A stretch of DNA of 50,070 nt from Anaerolineae bacterium. GTDB lineage: Bacteria; Chloroflexota; Anaerolineae; UBA1429. This document shows, piece by piece, positions 29,080 through 32,259 of the stretch (its first letter is position 1; each line of letters begins with the position of its first letter). The position numbers and the translations under genes are program-made. The notes beneath the pieces were generated by a model. It was not told the DNA's origin, made no database searches, and worked only from the letters and a program-made list of their open reading frames with translations. The stretch spans positions 1-50,070 of the forward strand of contig DAOTVR010000059.1 of assembly GCA_034436315.1 (NCBI GenBank), read 5' to 3'.

Positions 29080-30504
29080 TTAATGTTTCCGCAGGCCAAC
29101 GCCCCATGTCCTTGCCCAAAGGGCCTTTTTGAGCCGCCAGACCAGCCCGGCCCATGGCGGCCCCCCAGGCGCTAACCCCGCGAGTTCACCGAATCCGCCG
29201 CGCTGATCCCAATAGAGCGGACAGGCGCCACAACAGATGTCCCTTATCTTGCAGCGCTGGCATACGGGAGGGACGAACTCCTTGCGGCGCCAATATCGCG
29301 CGGTGCGCGTGTACCACACAGAACGAAAGGGGCGGTGCACCAGGTCGCCAATGCCTCCCTCAAAGCTGGAGCAAGGGAGCAACTGTCCCGAAGGATCGAC
29401 CGAGAGGAGGCCGTCTACGCAAGCGCACGACTTGCTGCCCAGTCCAGCTTGGACGGGGTTAAAGAGGCAATAGGGCAGAGGGGAATACCACACGAAGCGC
29501 AAGCCTTGCTCCTTTGCGCGCGCCTGGACGGAGCGGATCAGTGGGCCGATCTCCGTGTAGCGGATGTCGTCCGCCTCGTGTTTCAAGGCGGTGCCCGTAC
29601 GGATGACCATGTTCATGGAGAAATACTCGGAGCGCAGCTCCTGGGCGATAAAGTCCACCAGCTCCAGCAGATGCTGGCGGTTGCCGCCGCAGATCGTCGT
29701 GTTCGTGTGGGTGTGGATACCCGCTGCGCGCAAGTTCTTTACCCCACGCACGGTTTGCTCCCACGAGCCGGGATGGCGAGTGATCGCGTCGTGCACGGCT
29801 GCCGAGCCCCCCTCCAGGCTCACCTGGGCGGAATCCAGGCCGGCCTCGGCGAGGGCGCGCGCATAGGCAGGGTCGGCGCATTTGAGGCCATTGGTAATCA
29901 GGTTGACGCGCATCCCCTTGGCCTTGGCGTAAGCGATCAGCTCGGGAAGATCTCGGCGCAAAGTGGGCTCCCCGCCGGTGAAAGAGACCGTGGGGCAGCG
30001 GGCCTCATCGAAGATGCGGTCAATGACGATCTTGACCTCGGCCGTGCTCATCTCGGGCACCTGGCGACCACGGTTGGGCGAGTCGGCGTAGCAGAAGGTA
30101 CAACGGTTCTGGCAATCGTACGTTAAGGCGATCTCCGATAACACGGGCAATTCGCGCCGATGGCTGCCATAAGGCGTCTGCCTGATGCTGGGCGCTCCGC
30201 AGACGTTATCGTTGAGCAAGGCGGATACACTGATGAGGAGATTGCGCAGGTCCTCACGCACCCGCGCCTCATCAGCTTGATAGCGCTGGGCCACGAAACG
30301 CACCACAGCCTCAACATCCGGCCCCTTGGAGTTACTGTAGAGCATATCCAGCATCAGGGTGGCCGTCTCGTTCAAGTAGTGCAGCCGATTGGGGCGCAGG
30401 ATGATCAGGCCATCCTCAGGGCGGATGTACACGTACTCCCGCGTGGAGTTCACCAGATCGGTAGCGAACCGCTGTAGATCAAAAGGCTGTGATGCTTCAC
30501 TCAT
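29080..30504 (-). CDS. Radical SAM/SPASM peptide-protein maturase with N-terminal PqqD-like (RRE) domain
   Basis: CX3CX2C motif CQNRCTFC (nt 30091-30114) and GGEPTL. The C-terminal Cys cluster (CAC..PC..CQRC..CCGAC) is typical of SPASM twitch domains. The first ~95 aa resemble PqqD/RRE (YIRPEDGLIILRPNRLHYLNETATLMLDML). Confidence 0.85.
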   Translation of the reverse strand: MSEASQPFDLQRFATDLVNSTREYVYIRPEDGLIILRPNRLHYLNETATLMLDMLYSNSKGPDVEAVVRFVAQRYQADEARVREDLRNLLISVSALLNDNVCGAPSIRQTPYGSHRRELPVLSEIALTYDCQNRCTFCYADSPNRGRQVPEMSTAEVKIVIDRIFDEARCPTVSFTGGEPTLRRDLPELIAYAKAKGMRVNLITNGLKCADPAYARALAEAGLDSAQVSLEGGSAAVHDAITRHPGSWEQTVRGVKNLRAAGIHTHTNTTICGGNRQHLLELVDFIAQELRSEYFSMNMVIRTGTALKHEADDIRYTEIGPLIRSVQARAKEQGLRFVWYSPLPYCLFNPVQAGLGSKSCACVDGLLSVDPSGQLLPCSSFEGGIGDLVHRPFRSVWYTRTARYWRRKEFVPPVCQRCKIRDICCGACPLYWDQRGGFGELAGLAPGGPPWAGLVWRLKKALWARTWGVGLRKH

Positions 30505-30516
30505 GTTTTATCCTGC

Positions 30517-32259
30517 TTAGAAACGGCTCACGCAGGCCGAGTGGCAGGCGCTATGGCAGGCGCTATGGCACACGCAGGCCGAATGACAGGCGCTGTGACA
30601 GGCATCGTGTACACAGGCACTATGGCAAGCGTCGTGTACGCAGGCCGAATGACATGCGCTATGGCAGGCCGAATGGCAGGCGTCGTAGCCGGCCTCGCCG
30701 GGCGCGCTTTTTTCGCCGCCCAAGATGCGGCTCACTCCCTGCTCAATGCGCTGTACCGTGCCGCTGATGGTCTGCTCCACGCCGCGCGTCAGCTCATCGG
30801 CCAAACGCTCCAGGGGCGCGACGGCCTCCTGAGCGGTGCGCACCAAGGGACCGGGCGCTCCGGCGGCCGCGGGAGCCACCCGCCGGCGGTCGCTCAAGAT
30901 GATCCAGGGCAGGTAGTTTGGCATCGGCGCTTGGGGTGGCCGGGTGCGCCAATCTCGCTCATATTCTTCCCAGGCGGTATCAATCCGTCGCCGGTAGGTC
31001 TCCCGCGTGGCTGCCGGATCTGCATTCCACATCTTGGGCTGGACGCTGGCGGCTACTGCAGCGAGGATCGCGGGAATCTTGGTCTTGTCGAGCGTCCCAT
31101 CCTCTTGGATGGCATCCAGCAGGGCCTTTTCATAACTGGCGAGCTGTGCATCGGGCTTGAGCACCTCCATCTGCAAGGGGACGCGATTGACCACGTTGAT
31201 CACACCGCGCTGCTCAAGGGCCAGGACGATAAGGGTGATCGTCTTGGTTGAATCGCCCAGGTAGAAGGCCGCCTCAATGGCGTTCAGGTCGGGCACCACG
31301 CCGGGGGTTTGGAAAGTCTCTATGTCTATCTCGGGTGGCTCATAGGTTGGCTTGGGCTTGCGCGGGCGCGTGGCCAAGACCGTCAGGATCAGGACGGCGA
31401 GGGTGATGGGGATGCCAAAACAGAAGGCTCCTGTGCGCAGCGAACGCCATTCTGAGCTGGTAAAGCCCATGAATCCGGCCGGCTCTGTGGGAGCCGGTGT
31501 GGGCTGTTTCAAGGGGATGGCGGTCTCTTTTGTCGTGGTGATGAACTCACCAGGAATGTAGAACTTGGGCACCATCGTCTGGTTGGCCCGAAGGTTGTCC
31601 TTGCGAACGAAGAGGGAGAGCCAAACCTTGCCCGTCTGTTCATCAGGGGTAGGGAAGTAGACCCAACGATCGAAACGGCTCGTATCTTCTACCAGTAGCC
31701 CGGTGGCGTCAACGATCTCGTCTGTGACCTCCTCGGGCTGGGTGATGTTTGCGGGCAATTCAATGGGCAATACGTAGCGAATCTCTTGACGCACGATGGG
31801 CAGAGCCCACTGGAAAGGTGCCCAGCCGATGGCGCGATAGGGTTTCCCATTGACCGTCGTCTCATCAAAGACGGAGCTATCTACCGTGTAACGCACCAGG
31901 ATCTCGTACTGTCCGCCGTTGCGGGTGGGCTTTTCAAAGTTGACCTGATAGGTCTCTGGCCCGCCTTGCAGGGTCACCGTAAAGACCCCATCGGGGCCTT
32001 TGCCGCTCGCGGAGACGATGGTATGCTCGCGGGGGAAGGGACCTAGCGCGCTGATCTTGCTGCGACCGCTCTCCAGCTCGGTGAAGGTTAAGGTATAGCG
32101 CACGTCTAGGCGCCCATCGTTGAGCACGACCACGTAGGCATCGACCTTATCTATCCTAACGGGGTCGGCCGCTGAGGCAACCAGGGGCAGTATGCCCCAG
32201 GTTACAGCCACGACGGCGATAACCAGAAGCGAGATCCTTACAATGCGATGCATGGTCAT
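30517..32259 (-). CDS. DUF2207-like type-I membrane protein with C-terminal (C-H-S-A)n CXXX-repeat tail
   Basis: ATG at 32259 overlaps the upstream stop (ATGA) and follows GGGAGGG. Signal peptide (LPLVASA/AD), ~250-aa ectodomain starting [26 protein letters not shown], one TM (aa ~277-297) followed by RPRKPKP and YEPP, then a ~280-aa C-terminal region ending in the Cys/His repeat. Confidence 0.75.
   Translation of the reverse strand: [580 protein letters not shown]
30520..30678 (-). repeat. Coding tandem periodicity (12-nt / 4-codon units) encoding [54 protein letters not shown]
   Basis: Direct translation of the minus strand. The units use synonymous alternatives: Cys TGC/TGT, Ser TCG/AGC/AGT, His CAC/CAT, Ala GCC/GCT/GCA. 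Confidence 0.9.

What the first reader, a model, noticed from the sequence alone, without database searches (positions are those of the whole stretch)
29080..32259. CXXX-repeat Cys/His tail fused to a DUF2207-like membrane protein, 12 nt upstream of an RRE-radical SAM/SPASM maturase
Seen: the minus-strand CDS 32259..30517 ends [60 protein letters not shown]. That is 13 Cys and 11 His in the last 53 residues, with Cys mostly every fourth position. Twelve nt downstream, with AGGA in the gap, a 474-aa protein starts. It has a PqqD/RRE-like N-terminus, the CX3CX2C motif CQNRCTFC and a SPASM-type C-terminal Cys cluster. Established: RRE-containing rSAM/SPASM enzymes are peptide or protein maturases that often act on Cys, as in sactipeptide and ranthipeptide thioethers. 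QhpD, which crosslinks the QhpC protein subunit, is a precedent for a protein substrate. A 'CXXX repeat peptide maturase' rSAM family with Cys-every-fourth-residue targets was predicted in silico (Haft and Basu 2011). As far as I know it has not been chemically characterised. Inference: here the CXXX repeat is the C-terminal tail of a 580-aa type-I membrane protein rather than a free short precursor. This suggests a protein-tail modification system, not a released RiPP.
Basis: partly seen in the sequence, partly recalled or inferred. Interest (0 to 1): 0.9.

Follow-up and report, generated by a model that had tools for sequence, protein, structure and literature searches.

The report
Radical-SAM-matured Cys/His tail on membrane protein
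A membrane protein of an uncultured Anaerolineae bacterium ends in an almost invariant run of eleven His-x-Ala-Cys units and is always encoded next to a peptide-modifying radical SAM enzyme, which points to an undescribed system that chemically modifies the tail of a large protein rather than a small peptide.

Summary
ORF 30517..32259 (-) ends in 13 Cys and 11 His within 53 residues. Twelve nt downstream starts a 474-aa protein with a PqqD/RRE domain, a radical SAM core (CQNRCTFC) and a SPASM domain.

The pairing is not chance. A Cys-repeat tail lies upstream of the rSAM homologue, on the same strand, in 50 of 58 genome loci. The other eight are cut short by contig ends or hold only distant rSAMs. 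The loci come from several bacterial phyla and from archaea.

The conserved unit is H-x-A-C, not CXXX. It occurs 11 times in Anaerolineae and 2-10 times elsewhere. An archaeal sister class has (CA)n tails. Tails that are identical as protein are only 69-88% identical as DNA, so selection acts on the peptide.

The conserved cassette is tail protein, rSAM, a coiled-coil protein and a 2-TM zinc-ribbon protein. It contains no protease and no exporter.

No component reaches the cut-off of any NCBIfam family model; only generic domain models (rSAM, SPASM, PqqD) pass. This includes the ranthipeptide, QhpD, Hxs and ACGX models. I found no literature on it.

Most likely the rSAM installs Cys-based cross-links in the cytoplasmic tail, and the tail stays on the protein. 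The chemistry and the biological role are untested.

I rate it a new variant of a known kind, with high interest.

The parts
30517..32259 (-). Tail-bearing type-I membrane protein, DUF2207-like. It is 580 aa from the ATG at 32259, or 578 aa in public gene calls.
32170..32259 (-). Signal peptide or N-terminal hydrophobic segment (residues 1-30, ...LVASA/ADP).
   Evidence: Hydropathy; AF2 helix 3-26.
31552..32160 (-). Extracytoplasmic beta-sandwich domain (residues 34-236). It resembles the non-catalytic domain I of M1 aminopeptidases.
   Evidence: AF2 block-mean pLDDT mostly about 90; Foldseek hits to ERAP1/APN/LTA4H at E about 3e-8; weak PF09972 hit over residues 35-165.
31369..31434 (-). Single transmembrane helix [22 protein letters not shown]. 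It is followed by RPRKPKP, which places the C-terminal part in the cytoplasm.
30940..31347 (-). Conserved cytoplasmic alpha/beta domain (residues 305-440, YEPPEIEIETF...PDL..IEAA...). This is the part shared with the most distant relatives and with TIGR04222.
30691..30849 (-). Helical stalk and variable linker before the tail (residues 471-523). It is a candidate recognition region for the RRE.
   Evidence: AF2 helix 471-512; moderate conservation. The recognition role is inference.
30520..30690 (-). GYDA followed by the Cys/His repeat tail. There are eleven H-x-A-C units arranged 3-V-2-V-3-VC-3, then VSRF and the stop codon.
30505..30516 (-). 12-nt intergenic gap GCAGGATAAAAC with an AGGA ribosome-binding site.
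29080..30504 (-). RRE-radical SAM-SPASM enzyme, 474 aa.
30214..30477 (-). N-terminal RRE (PqqD-like winged helix; residues 10-97).
   Evidence: Pfam PqqD 31.1 bits against 23.4; lasso-type PqqD and WgkC similarity; AF2 gives three strands plus three helices.
30091..30114 (-). Radical SAM cluster motif CQNRCTFC (C131, C135, C138).
29221..29469 (-). SPASM region with seven conserved Cys: C346, C360, C378, C415, C418, C424, C428.
27825..29012 (-). 395-aa coiled-coil protein of no known family. It is a conserved cassette member.
   Evidence: Synteny; no family found.
27296..27787 (-). 163-aa protein with two TM helices, a cytoplasmic domain and a C-terminal zinc ribbon. It is a conserved cassette member, including in archaeal loci.
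   Evidence: Natural fusions P0136 and P0246.
25286..27295 (-). InhA-like (M6) metalloprotease with a MAM domain and a lipoprotein-type signal. It abuts the cassette in Anaerolineae only, so it is probably a lineage-specific neighbour.

Best explanation
This is a dedicated protein-tail maturation system. The 580-aa protein sits in the membrane with its beta-sandwich domain outside and its C-terminal third in the cytoplasm. The last part of that third is eleven tandem H-x-A-C units.

The co-translated RRE-rSAM-SPASM enzyme docks on the cytoplasmic part through its RRE. It uses 5'-deoxyadenosyl radical chemistry and its auxiliary Fe-S clusters to modify the Cys residues unit by unit.

The most likely product is one intramolecular thioether (C-S) cross-link per unit. 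The likely acceptor is the residue three positions upstream of each Cys (His, rarely Tyr; Ala in the (CA)n class), as in N-x-x-C peptides.

The product is not cut off. It stays as a rigid, His-studded, poly-cyclic tail on the membrane protein. There it works together with the co-conserved coiled-coil protein and the 2-TM zinc-ribbon protein, plausibly as a metal- or redox-responsive module.

Shown: the anatomy, the domain identities, the obligate gene pairing and the extreme selection on the tail. Inferred: that the tail is the substrate, the type of bond, retention on the protein, and the physiological role.
For: (1) Gene pairing. The tail is upstream of the rSAM homologue on the same strand in 50 of 58 genome loci. 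The gap is usually 1-70 nt, and the two genes abut or overlap by 1 nt in two loci. The exceptions are five loci truncated by contig ends, one locus with only 1.1 kb of upstream sequence, and two rSAMs of 28-32% identity.

(2) The pairing survives deep divergence. It holds for Armatimonadia, Acidobacteriota, Planctomycetota, Myxococcales and two archaeal MAGs. It also holds across tail classes. (CA)n tails sit next to rSAMs of 31-39% identity (L053, L059, L061). A spaced HSACV tail sits next to a 34% rSAM (L062). L066 has a 44% rSAM.

(3) The tail is the most conserved part of the protein. Mean identity is 0.92-0.93, against 0.2-0.75 elsewhere. Fourteen protein-identical tails are only 69-88% identical in DNA. 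Every codon shows synonymous variants, including switches between the AGY and TCN serine codons.

(4) The unit is constrained at four positions. Position -3 is His in 85% (Tyr 5%), -2 is Ser or Asp, -1 is Ala in 90%, and 0 is Cys.

(5) The enzyme has the RiPP-maturase architecture. PqqD, Radical_SAM and SPASM all pass their thresholds. The AF2 model (pTM 0.84) has an RRE fold. The best full-length structural matches are SkfB, SuiB and CteB. The SPASM region has seven conserved Cys.

(6) Topology puts the tail in the same compartment as the enzyme.

(7) The conserved cassette has no protease or exporter.

(8) Precedents exist. NxxcB forms a thioether from Cys to the residue at -3 and tolerates Ala as acceptor (PMC9389541). 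HxsA is a protein with short repeats matured by rSAM enzymes (PMC13128918).
Against: There is no biochemical evidence. The chemistry is guessed from enzyme class and substrate composition.

The rSAM scores no better against thioether synthases (PapB, QhpD, SCIFF, StsB) than against AhbD, NirJ or PqqE. Sequence therefore does not pick out a reaction.

AF2 gives the tail low confidence (pLDDT below 50).

A tail with 11-13 Cys and 11 His would bind metals even if unmodified.

In a few loci the rSAM is 0.8-2.7 kb from the tail gene, and in L061 it is on the other strand.

The role of the two accessory proteins is unknown.
Confidence: 0.55

Rival explanations
1. The membrane protein is an oversized precursor. 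After modification the tail, or individual H-x-A-C units, is cut off to give a released RiPP or a small Cys/His-derived cofactor. PQQ and mycofactocin arise from peptides in this way.
For: RRE-rSAM-SPASM enzymes usually act on precursors that are later cleaved. The RRE is of the PqqD type, and PqqE is among the sequence and structure hits. Repeated core units occur in multi-core precursors. In Anaerolineae a metalloprotease gene abuts the cassette.
Against: That protease has a lipoprotein-type signal, so it would be on the other side of the membrane. It is also absent from the cassette outside Anaerolineae. No peptidase or transporter is conserved with the pair. The ectodomain, TM helix and cytoplasmic domain are conserved across phyla, which would be pointless for a leader. 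The exact arrangement 3-V-2-V-3-V-3 is conserved, which is not expected for interchangeable core copies.
Confidence: 0.15
2. The rSAM changes the Cys residues themselves rather than cross-linking them. Candidates are metal-binding thio-oxazole-type heterocycles (as named for SbtM) or formylglycine (as made by anSME). The result would be a high-capacity metal-binding or reactive tail.
For: Cys is the only residue shared by the HxAC and (CA)n tail classes. The SPASM region shows weak similarity to SbtM and anSME models, at the same level as to thioether synthases. anSME is among the structural neighbours and acts on full-length proteins. Retained His residues would complement sulfur heterocycles as metal ligands.
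Against: The scores are far below the cut-offs: SbtM 16.6 bits against 350, anSME 16.2 against 349. The anSME motif C/S-x-P/A-x-R is absent. anSME has no RRE. Strong constraint on Ala at -1 and His/Tyr at -3 fits an acceptor-donor geometry at least as well.
Confidence: 0.15
3. The tail is not a substrate. It is a metallothionein-like metal or Fe-S binding tail, for example a sensor, a store or an electron-donating partner. The rSAM acts on another molecule while docked to it.
For: 13 Cys and 11 His in 53 residues will chelate Zn, Cu, Ni or Fe. The tail is predicted helical, though at low confidence. On a helix, the 4-residue period would place Cys and His in stripes. Intermolecular electron transfer to rSAM enzymes has been described (title of PMC10470005, seen).
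Against: Metal-binding low-complexity tails normally vary in length and order. Here 53 residues are identical across genomes whose rSAMs are about 70% identical. The enzyme carries an RRE, a peptide-recognition domain. No alternative small precursor ORF is conserved in the cassette. Ala at -1 is 90% conserved, which metal binding does not explain.
Confidence: 0.12
4. The overlapping CX3CH and CX4CH strings are atypical heme-c attachment sites, which would make the tail a multi-heme wire.
For: ACHSACH reads as C-x3-C-H and CVHDACH as C-x4-C-H. The top NCBIfam hits of the rSAM are the heme enzymes AhbD and NirJ2.
Against: The tail is on the cytoplasmic side, whereas heme-c attachment takes place outside the cytoplasmic membrane (established knowledge, not tested here). 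Many tails have an odd number of Cys (11). The sister class (CA)n has no His. The AhbD and NirJ scores are generic: 130 bits against 500, covering the rSAM core only.
Confidence: 0.02

Closest known systems
NxxcB/NxxcA (NxxC RaS-RiPP of streptococci; beta-thioether from Cys to the Asn three residues upstream)
   Same: Both have an rSAM/SPASM enzyme and a substrate built on a four-residue unit ending in Cys. In both, the conserved residue is at -3. NxxcB accepts Ala, Gln or Asp as acceptor (PMC9389541), which would also cover the (CA)n tails.
   Different: NxxcA is a short free precursor. Here the acceptor candidate is His, there are 11 units, and the substrate is the end of a 580-aa membrane protein. 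No sequence-family match was shown. The product here is unknown.
QhpD/QhpC (quinohemoprotein amine dehydrogenase maturation)
   Same: Both involve an rSAM/SPASM enzyme acting on Cys residues of a polypeptide that remains a functional protein part rather than a released natural product.
   Different: QhpC is a small soluble subunit without repeats. TIGR03906 scores 17.6 bits against a cut-off of 453. There is no quinone cofactor context here.
HXS system (HxsB/HxsC/HxsD maturing HxsA; PMC13128918)
   Same: Both have rSAM enzymes maturing a protein that carries short tandem His-containing repeats. In both, the repeats were noticed in silico long before any function was known.
   Different: HXS uses two rSAMs plus HxsD. 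HxsA is a processed periplasmic peptidoglycan-binding defence effector with five H-x-S repeats and no Cys logic, found almost only in Pseudomonadota. HxsC scores 79 bits against 268. There is no PADLOC match here.
In-silico 'CXXX repeat' and 'ACGX repeat' rSAM target systems (TIGRFAM/NCBIfam TIGR04340; Pfam PF27846)
   Same: Both have Cys at a four-residue period next to an rSAM/SPASM enzyme. Neither has been chemically characterised, as far as the searchable literature shows.
   Different: Going by their family names, those targets are peptides; I could not read the family descriptions. TIGR04340 scores 98.6 bits against 400. The tail protein and its relatives have no PF27846 hit on record. 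P0276, which does have a faint hit, sits with two unrelated rSAMs that lack an RRE.
Structurally characterised RRE-rSAM-SPASM maturases: SkfB, CteB (thioether) and SuiB (Lys-Trp)
   Same: They share the three-domain architecture. They are the best full-length Foldseek matches and SkfB and CteB are also PDB sequence matches.
   Different: Identity is 14-18%. Their substrates are free peptides.
DUF2207 / YciQ-type membrane proteins
   Same: Both have an N-terminal extracytoplasmic beta-sandwich, a membrane anchor and a cytoplasmic domain with a low-complexity C-terminal tail. Some relatives carry PF09972 or the DUF2207 name.
   Different: From my own recollection, not checked here, ordinary DUF2207 proteins end in Gly-rich tails and are not paired with an rSAM. 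The window protein is below the Pfam threshold and has a single TM helix.

Membership tests
RRE-dependent radical SAM/SPASM peptide/protein maturases (functional class) | CX3CX2C radical SAM cluster motif and rSAM core | tested here: met
   CQNRCTFC. Pfam Radical_SAM scores 106.9 bits against 29.5. The Cys are invariant in 48 sequences.
RRE-dependent radical SAM/SPASM peptide/protein maturases (functional class) | C-terminal SPASM domain with auxiliary-cluster Cys | tested here: met
   TIGR04085 scores 41.1 bits against 27. Pfam SPASM scores 23.1 against 21.5. Seven Cys are conserved.
RRE-dependent radical SAM/SPASM peptide/protein maturases (functional class) | RRE (PqqD-like) substrate-recognition domain | tested here: met
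   Pfam PqqD scores 31.1 bits against 23.4. AF2 shows a three-strand, three-helix N-terminal domain.
RRE-dependent radical SAM/SPASM peptide/protein maturases (functional class) | Conserved co-location with a candidate substrate | tested here: met
   50 of 58 loci, including all testable loci with at least 31% identity. Also L059-L062 and L066.
RRE-dependent radical SAM/SPASM peptide/protein maturases (functional class) | Demonstrated covalent modification of the substrate | not testable with these tools
   Needs co-expression and mass spectrometry.
CXXX-repeat peptide system (Haft and Basu 2011; Pfam PF27846 target family) | rSAM reaches the family's HMM cut-off | tested here: not met
   No CXXX-repeat maturase model is among the best 25 NCBIfam hits, so any score is below 68.5 bits. 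The best hit overall is 130 bits against 500.
CXXX-repeat peptide system (Haft and Basu 2011; Pfam PF27846 target family) | Target matches the CXXX-repeat target model | tested here: not met
   The 578-aa gene call and the relatives P0127, P0185, P0218, P0237, P0238 and P0242 have no Pfam hit on record. The tail alone hits nothing in NCBIfam or in the local Pfam copy. PF27846 itself does not appear to be in the local Pfam copy.
CXXX-repeat peptide system (Haft and Basu 2011; Pfam PF27846 target family) | Target is a short stand-alone peptide | tested here: not met
   The tail is fused to proteins of 484-967 aa with an ectodomain and a TM helix.
ACGX system (TIGR04340) | rSAM reaches the cut-off | tested here: not met
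   98.6 bits against 400.
Thioether synthases (PapB ranthipeptide, SCIFF, StsB, QhpD, CcpM) | HMM membership | tested here: not met
   StsB scores 96.5 bits against 625. On the SPASM part, PapB scores 21.2 against 340 and QhpD 17.6 against 453.
Thioether synthases (PapB ranthipeptide, SCIFF, StsB, QhpD, CcpM) | Product contains a Cys S-C(alpha/beta/gamma) cross-link | not testable with these tools
   Inference only.
HXS system | HxsB/HxsC/HxsD set and H-x-S repeats | tested here: not met
   HxsC scores 79 bits against 267.9 and HxsC4 scores 104 against 500. There is a single rSAM and no HxsD. The repeat is H-x-A-C.
Anaerobic sulfatase-maturing enzymes | HMM membership and a C/S-x-P/A-x-R target motif | tested here: not met
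   TIGR03942 scores 16.2 bits against 349. The motif is absent from the tail.
DUF2207 (PF09972) | N-terminal domain reaches the Pfam gathering score | tested here: inconclusive
   The window protein scores 15.5 bits against 24.4. Homologues P0130 and P0136 carry PF09972, and P0123 and P0130 are named DUF2207 by NCBI. The fold is an M1-peptidase domain-I-like beta-sandwich.
Known anti-phage defence systems (PADLOC) | Any component matches a defence model specifically | tested here: not met
   Only generic rSAM (pVip) and coiled-coil similarity were found. There are no phage or plasmid matches.

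The most novel reading that the evidence does not exclude
The matured tail is a new kind of protein-derived, membrane-tethered cofactor array. Eleven serial Cys-His units would be converted by one rSAM into a rigid chain of cross-linked or heterocyclic sulfur-imidazole sites. This chain would bind a defined row of metal ions or conduct electrons. It would serve a transmembrane sensing or redox function that is core to Anaerolineae and has spread to other anaerobes, including archaea.
Probability: 0.15. Interest if true: 0.92.

Novelty: new variant of a known kind. Interest (0 to 1): 0.78.

Why it matters
Radical SAM/SPASM maturases are known almost entirely from small peptides that become natural products. 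Here the same machinery appears to be dedicated to the C-terminal tail of a large integral membrane protein. The gene pair is found in several bacterial phyla and in archaea, and selection on the tail is about as strict as selection on a peptide can be.

If confirmed, this would extend RiPP-type chemistry to permanent protein modification. It would give a first functional handle on part of the large, uncharacterised DUF2207-like protein group. It would probably also reveal a new Cys (and perhaps His) cross-link or metal site.

The experiment is simple: two genes, E. coli and mass spectrometry. The short, regular repeat could also be useful as an enzymatically stapled tag.

Tried and rejected
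(1) Literature. I searched for 'CXXX repeat', tail strings ([15 protein letters not shown]), 'DUF2207' with 'radical SAM', 'ACGX', and HxAC/ACHx names. Nothing relevant was found. Haft and Basu 2011 (PMC3133131) is not held, so its CXXX family could only be tested through HMM libraries.

(2) A DUF2207/5-thiohistidine lead (PMC12631010) looked attractive for a Cys-His chemistry. The authors themselves conclude that the DUF2207 gene is unrelated to thiohistidine. Dropped.

(3) Word-indexed homology search with the membrane protein, with or without the tail, returned only 17-18 hits, and many of those were fragments. The exhaustive HMMER search was needed.

(4) The tail alone against NCBIfam and Pfam gave nothing.

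(5) The coiled-coil protein matches no family in Pfam, NCBIfam or PDB sequences. Only generic coiled-coil noise such as ApoA-I and SMC appeared.

(6) Defence-system reading: PADLOC gave only generic hits, and there were no phage or plasmid matches. Rejected.

(7) DNA-level repeat homogenisation as the cause of tail conservation is rejected, because synonymous differences occur at every codon.

(8) The heme-c motif reading is rejected on topology, odd Cys counts and the His-free sister class.

(9) P0276 (229 aa, TARA Oceans) has a similar tail but sits with two unrelated rSAMs that lack an RRE. I treated it as a separate system.

(10) The AF2 model of the tail itself has low confidence (pLDDT below 50) and I did not interpret it. 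No multimer prediction was possible.

Full report
**Observation.**
The minus-strand ORF ending at 30517 translates at its C-terminus to [57 protein letters not shown]. That is 13 Cys and 11 His in the last 53 residues. With the Cys (0.95%) and His (1.9%) frequencies of 25 long ORFs of this window, such counts have binomial probabilities of 3e-15 and 5e-9. No other coding stretch in the window is comparably Cys-dense. The stop codon (30517-30519) is followed by GCAGGATAAAAC, and then by the ATG of a 474-aa ORF at 30504. Public gene calls begin the membrane protein two codons downstream, giving 578 aa.

**The enzyme.**
The 474-aa protein has Pfam PqqD (31.1 bits against 23.4), Radical_SAM (106.9 bits), Fer4_12 and SPASM (23.1 against 21.5). 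The NCBIfam SPASM domain model also passes (41.1 against 27). The cluster motif is CQNRCTFC. In the SPASM region, seven Cys (346, 360, 378, 415, 418, 424, 428) are conserved from Anaerolineae to archaeal homologues. An AF2 model from 48 homologues (pLDDT 82, pTM 0.84) shows an N-terminal domain of three strands and three helices, which is the RRE fold. The best full-length structural matches are the RiPP maturases SkfB, SuiB and CteB, followed by anSME and PqqE. The PDB sequence hits agree.

No NCBIfam equivalog is approached. The best is AhbD, at 130 bits against a cut-off of 500. StsB, PqqE, HxsC, WgkB, ACGX, PapB, QhpD, SbtM and anSME are all several-fold below threshold. The same holds for distant clade members. 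The protein is therefore an RRE-rSAM-SPASM maturase of an unnamed clade. Sequence does not reveal its reaction.

**The tail-bearing protein.**
Hydropathy shows an N-terminal signal-like segment and one TM helix (about residues 276-297). The helix is followed by RPRKPKP. AF2 (17 sequences, pLDDT 71) gives the following parts:
- a confident beta-sandwich (residues 34-236);
- the TM helix;
- a confident cytoplasmic alpha/beta domain (325-440);
- long helices;
- a low-confidence tail.

The sandwich matches domain I of M1 aminopeptidases, which is non-catalytic. PF09972 (DUF2207) is sub-threshold for this protein (15.5 against 24.4). It is recorded for homologues, and NCBI names some of them DUF2207. 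TIGR04222 is also sub-threshold. The tail therefore lies in the cytoplasm, in the same compartment as the rSAM.

**Comparative genomics.**
The rSAM has more than 3000 hits at E<=1e-20. These are not necessarily all orthologues. The best 120 are 65-89% identical, and those that carry a source name are from Chloroflexota or Anaerolineae metagenome bins. A genome scan gave 58 loci. In 50 of them a Cys-repeat tail ends upstream of the rSAM on the same strand. The gap is 1-70 nt in most, and the genes abut or overlap by 1 nt in two. In a few loci the gap is 0.15-2.7 kb.

The eight loci without a tail are explained as follows:
- five have less than 250 nt of upstream sequence;
- one (L039) has only 1.1 kb of upstream sequence;
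- two have rSAMs of only 28-32% identity.

The pair occurs in Anaerolineae and in MAGs labelled Armatimonadia, Acidobacteriota, Planctomycetota, Myxococcales/Haliangium and 'Rickettsiales'. It also occurs in two archaeal bins.

An exhaustive HMMER search with the membrane protein found 280 clusters at 50% identity.
- Class 1 is (A-C-H-x)n with 2-11 units, ending ACVSGGxH, ACVSRF or VSSCAGSF.
- Class 2 is (CA)n, for example GGGGCACACACACAGCACACAGGGR.

Contexts fetched for divergent members again show the rSAM:
- L059: (CA)n tail, rSAM 39% identical, directly downstream;
- L053: (CA)n tail, rSAM 31% identical;
- L061: rSAM 33% identical, 2.7 kb away on the opposite strand;
- L062: spaced HSACV tail, rSAM 34% identical;
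- L060: rSAM 56% identical;
- L066: rSAM 44% identical.

**Other cassette genes.**
Two more genes travel with the pair. One is a roughly 395-aa coiled-coil protein (27825..29012). The other is a roughly 163-aa protein with two TM helices and a C-terminal zinc ribbon (27296..27787). They are present in nearly all Anaerolineae loci. One or both are also present in the Acidobacteriota, Myxococcales and 'Rickettsiales' loci. In two archaeal or (CA)n loci the zinc-ribbon gene lies just upstream of the tail gene.

Natural fusions tie the zinc ribbon to the membrane protein. P0136 has the ectodomain, a TM helix and a double zinc ribbon. P0246 has a zinc-ribbon insert and an HxAC tail. The coiled-coil protein matches no family.

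The InhA-like lipoprotein protease, WecG, the GT4 glycosyltransferase and the mevalonate genes are syntenic only within Anaerolineae. I treat them as vertically inherited neighbours. No peptidase or exporter is conserved with the pair.

**Constraint on the tail.**
Across 45 full-length sequences the tail is the best-conserved part of the protein. Mean identity to the window sequence is 0.92-0.93 for residues 541-580, against 0.2-0.75 elsewhere. Fourteen tails are identical over 53 residues yet only 69-88% identical in DNA (mean 79%). Every codon has synonymous alternatives, including AGY/TCN serine switches. The conservation is therefore purifying selection on the peptide, not repeat homogenisation or an RNA/DNA element.

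The first Cys and the Cys of 'VC' are replaceable. Several lineages have 11 Cys and 11 His. The eleven H-x-A-C units and their 3-V-2-V-3-V-3 arrangement are kept. Over 71 distinct class-1 tails (809 Cys), position -3 is His in 85% (Tyr 5%). Position -2 is Ser in 65% and Asp in 23%. Position -1 is Ala in 90%. Position +1 is His in 69% and Val in 26%.

**Mechanism (inference).**
Four lines of evidence make the tail the most plausible substrate of the rSAM:
- an RRE-bearing rSAM/SPASM enzyme is translationally coupled to the tail gene;
- the tail is cytoplasmic, like the enzyme;
- the gene pairing is obligate across domains of life and across tail classes;
- residue-level constraint on the tail is extreme.

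Cys is the only residue common to both tail classes. Cys-rich substrates of RRE-SPASM enzymes are typically converted to thioethers (sacti- and ranthipeptides, QhpC). In NxxC peptides the acceptor is the residue three positions before Cys, and NxxcB tolerates Ala there (PMC9389541). In H-x-A-C that position is His or Tyr, and in (CA)n it is Ala. I therefore favour one small thioether ring per unit.

The cassette has no protease or exporter, and the whole membrane protein is conserved, so I expect the product to stay attached. HxsA provides a recent precedent for an rSAM-matured protein with short repeats (PMC13128918).

The physiological role is open. A rigid His-lined tail next to a coiled-coil protein and a zinc-ribbon membrane protein suggests a metal- or redox-responsive membrane complex, but nothing tests this.

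**Rivals.**
- Release of a RiPP or cofactor (0.15) is disfavoured by the missing processing genes and by the conserved scaffold.
- A different Cys chemistry, such as thio-oxazole or formylglycine (0.15), cannot be excluded by sequence.
- An unmodified metal-binding tail with the rSAM acting elsewhere (0.12) does not explain the RRE, the invariant order of units or the Ala at -1.
- Heme-c-like CX3CH/CX4CH sites (0.02) conflict with topology, with odd Cys counts and with the His-free class.

**Relation to known families.**
In function and architecture, the system belongs with RRE-dependent rSAM/SPASM maturases. It is not a member of any named family that I could test. These were the CXXX-repeat and ACGX-repeat systems, PapB, SCIFF, StsB and QhpD, the Hxs system, anSME, and PADLOC defence systems. 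A Pfam family for CXXX-repeat rSAM targets exists (PF27846; seen as a faint precomputed hit on P0276). The window's protein and six relatives have no hit to it on record. P0276 also sits with two unrelated rSAMs. Ten literature searches found no description of this tail or cassette.

**Verdict.**
The finding is real, non-random and deeply conserved. The assignment to the CXXX-repeat maturase family is not. I rate it a new variant of a known kind and give it high interest (0.78).

**Limits.**
There is no biochemistry. Almost all sequences come from metagenome bins. Taxonomic labels of some bins may be wrong; the high-GC 'Rickettsiales' bin is one example. The Haft and Basu paper could not be read.

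Noticed in passing
L053:4124-5791; L059:861-3161; P0237-P0239, P0247, P0249, P0253, P0265, P0269, P0270, P0281: A sister class of DUF2207-like membrane proteins ends in alternating Cys-Ala tails, for example GGGGCACACACACAGCACACAGGGR and SCVCACVSCACACACVSCACACAGGG. Where context is available they sit next to RRE-rSAM homologues of 31-39% identity and a zinc-ribbon membrane protein. At least one locus is archaeal.
   Followed up: partly
L063:366-1055 (P0276, TARA Oceans contig): This 229-aa protein has no detected DUF2207-like ectodomain. It has a CH-rich tail (…[48 protein letters not shown]) and a faint precomputed hit to Pfam PF27846 'tSAM_targ_Cxxx_rpt'. It is followed by two rSAM/SPASM genes that lack an RRE and are unrelated to the window's enzyme. 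It is probably a different Cys-repeat maturation system.
   Followed up: partly
window 34127..39086 (-): A mevalonate-pathway block lies here: GHMP (mevalonate-type) kinase, DUF35/ChsH2 OB-fold zinc-ribbon protein, thiolase, HMG-CoA-synthase-like protein and HMG-CoA reductase. From my recollection, the thiolase/synthase/DUF35 arrangement is best known from archaea. Here it is in an Anaerolineae contig, and it is syntenic in many relatives.
   Followed up: partly
window 23978..25348 (+): A SelA (selenocysteine synthase) gene converges on, and overlaps by about 60 nt, the 3' end of the InhA-like protease gene. The organism appears to use selenocysteine.
   Followed up: no
P0136 (366 aa); P0246 (967 aa): These are natural fusions. 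P0136 joins the DUF2207-like ectodomain and a TM helix to a double zinc ribbon and has no Cys tail. P0246 carries a zinc-ribbon-like insert (CPFC…CLTC…CKVC) in its cytoplasmic part as well as an HxAC tail.
   Followed up: partly
window 30517..32259: The exact 580-aa sequence (ATG at 32259) is absent from the 15-billion-protein collection, probably because public gene calls use a start two codons downstream (578 aa). Word-indexed searches returned only 17-18 relatives, many of them fragments. Full-length tail proteins seem to be under-represented or truncated at contig ends, which may explain why the family has gone unnoticed.
   Followed up: partly
L015:4182-5999: The tail in this locus contains Ns and many substitutions (…HSSCHWSCVHAACDSPCVHEACHSACPWACLC…). 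This looks like assembly error within the repeat rather than real divergence.
   Followed up: no
window 43852..43924 and 43969..44041 (+): Two tRNA genes lie here.
   Followed up: no
L040-L042, L045, L049, L051: In these loci an extra gene lies between the tail gene and the rSAM (gap 0.8-2.7 kb). In L041 it is a 687-aa secreted-looking protein. The pair therefore tolerates insertion.
   Followed up: no
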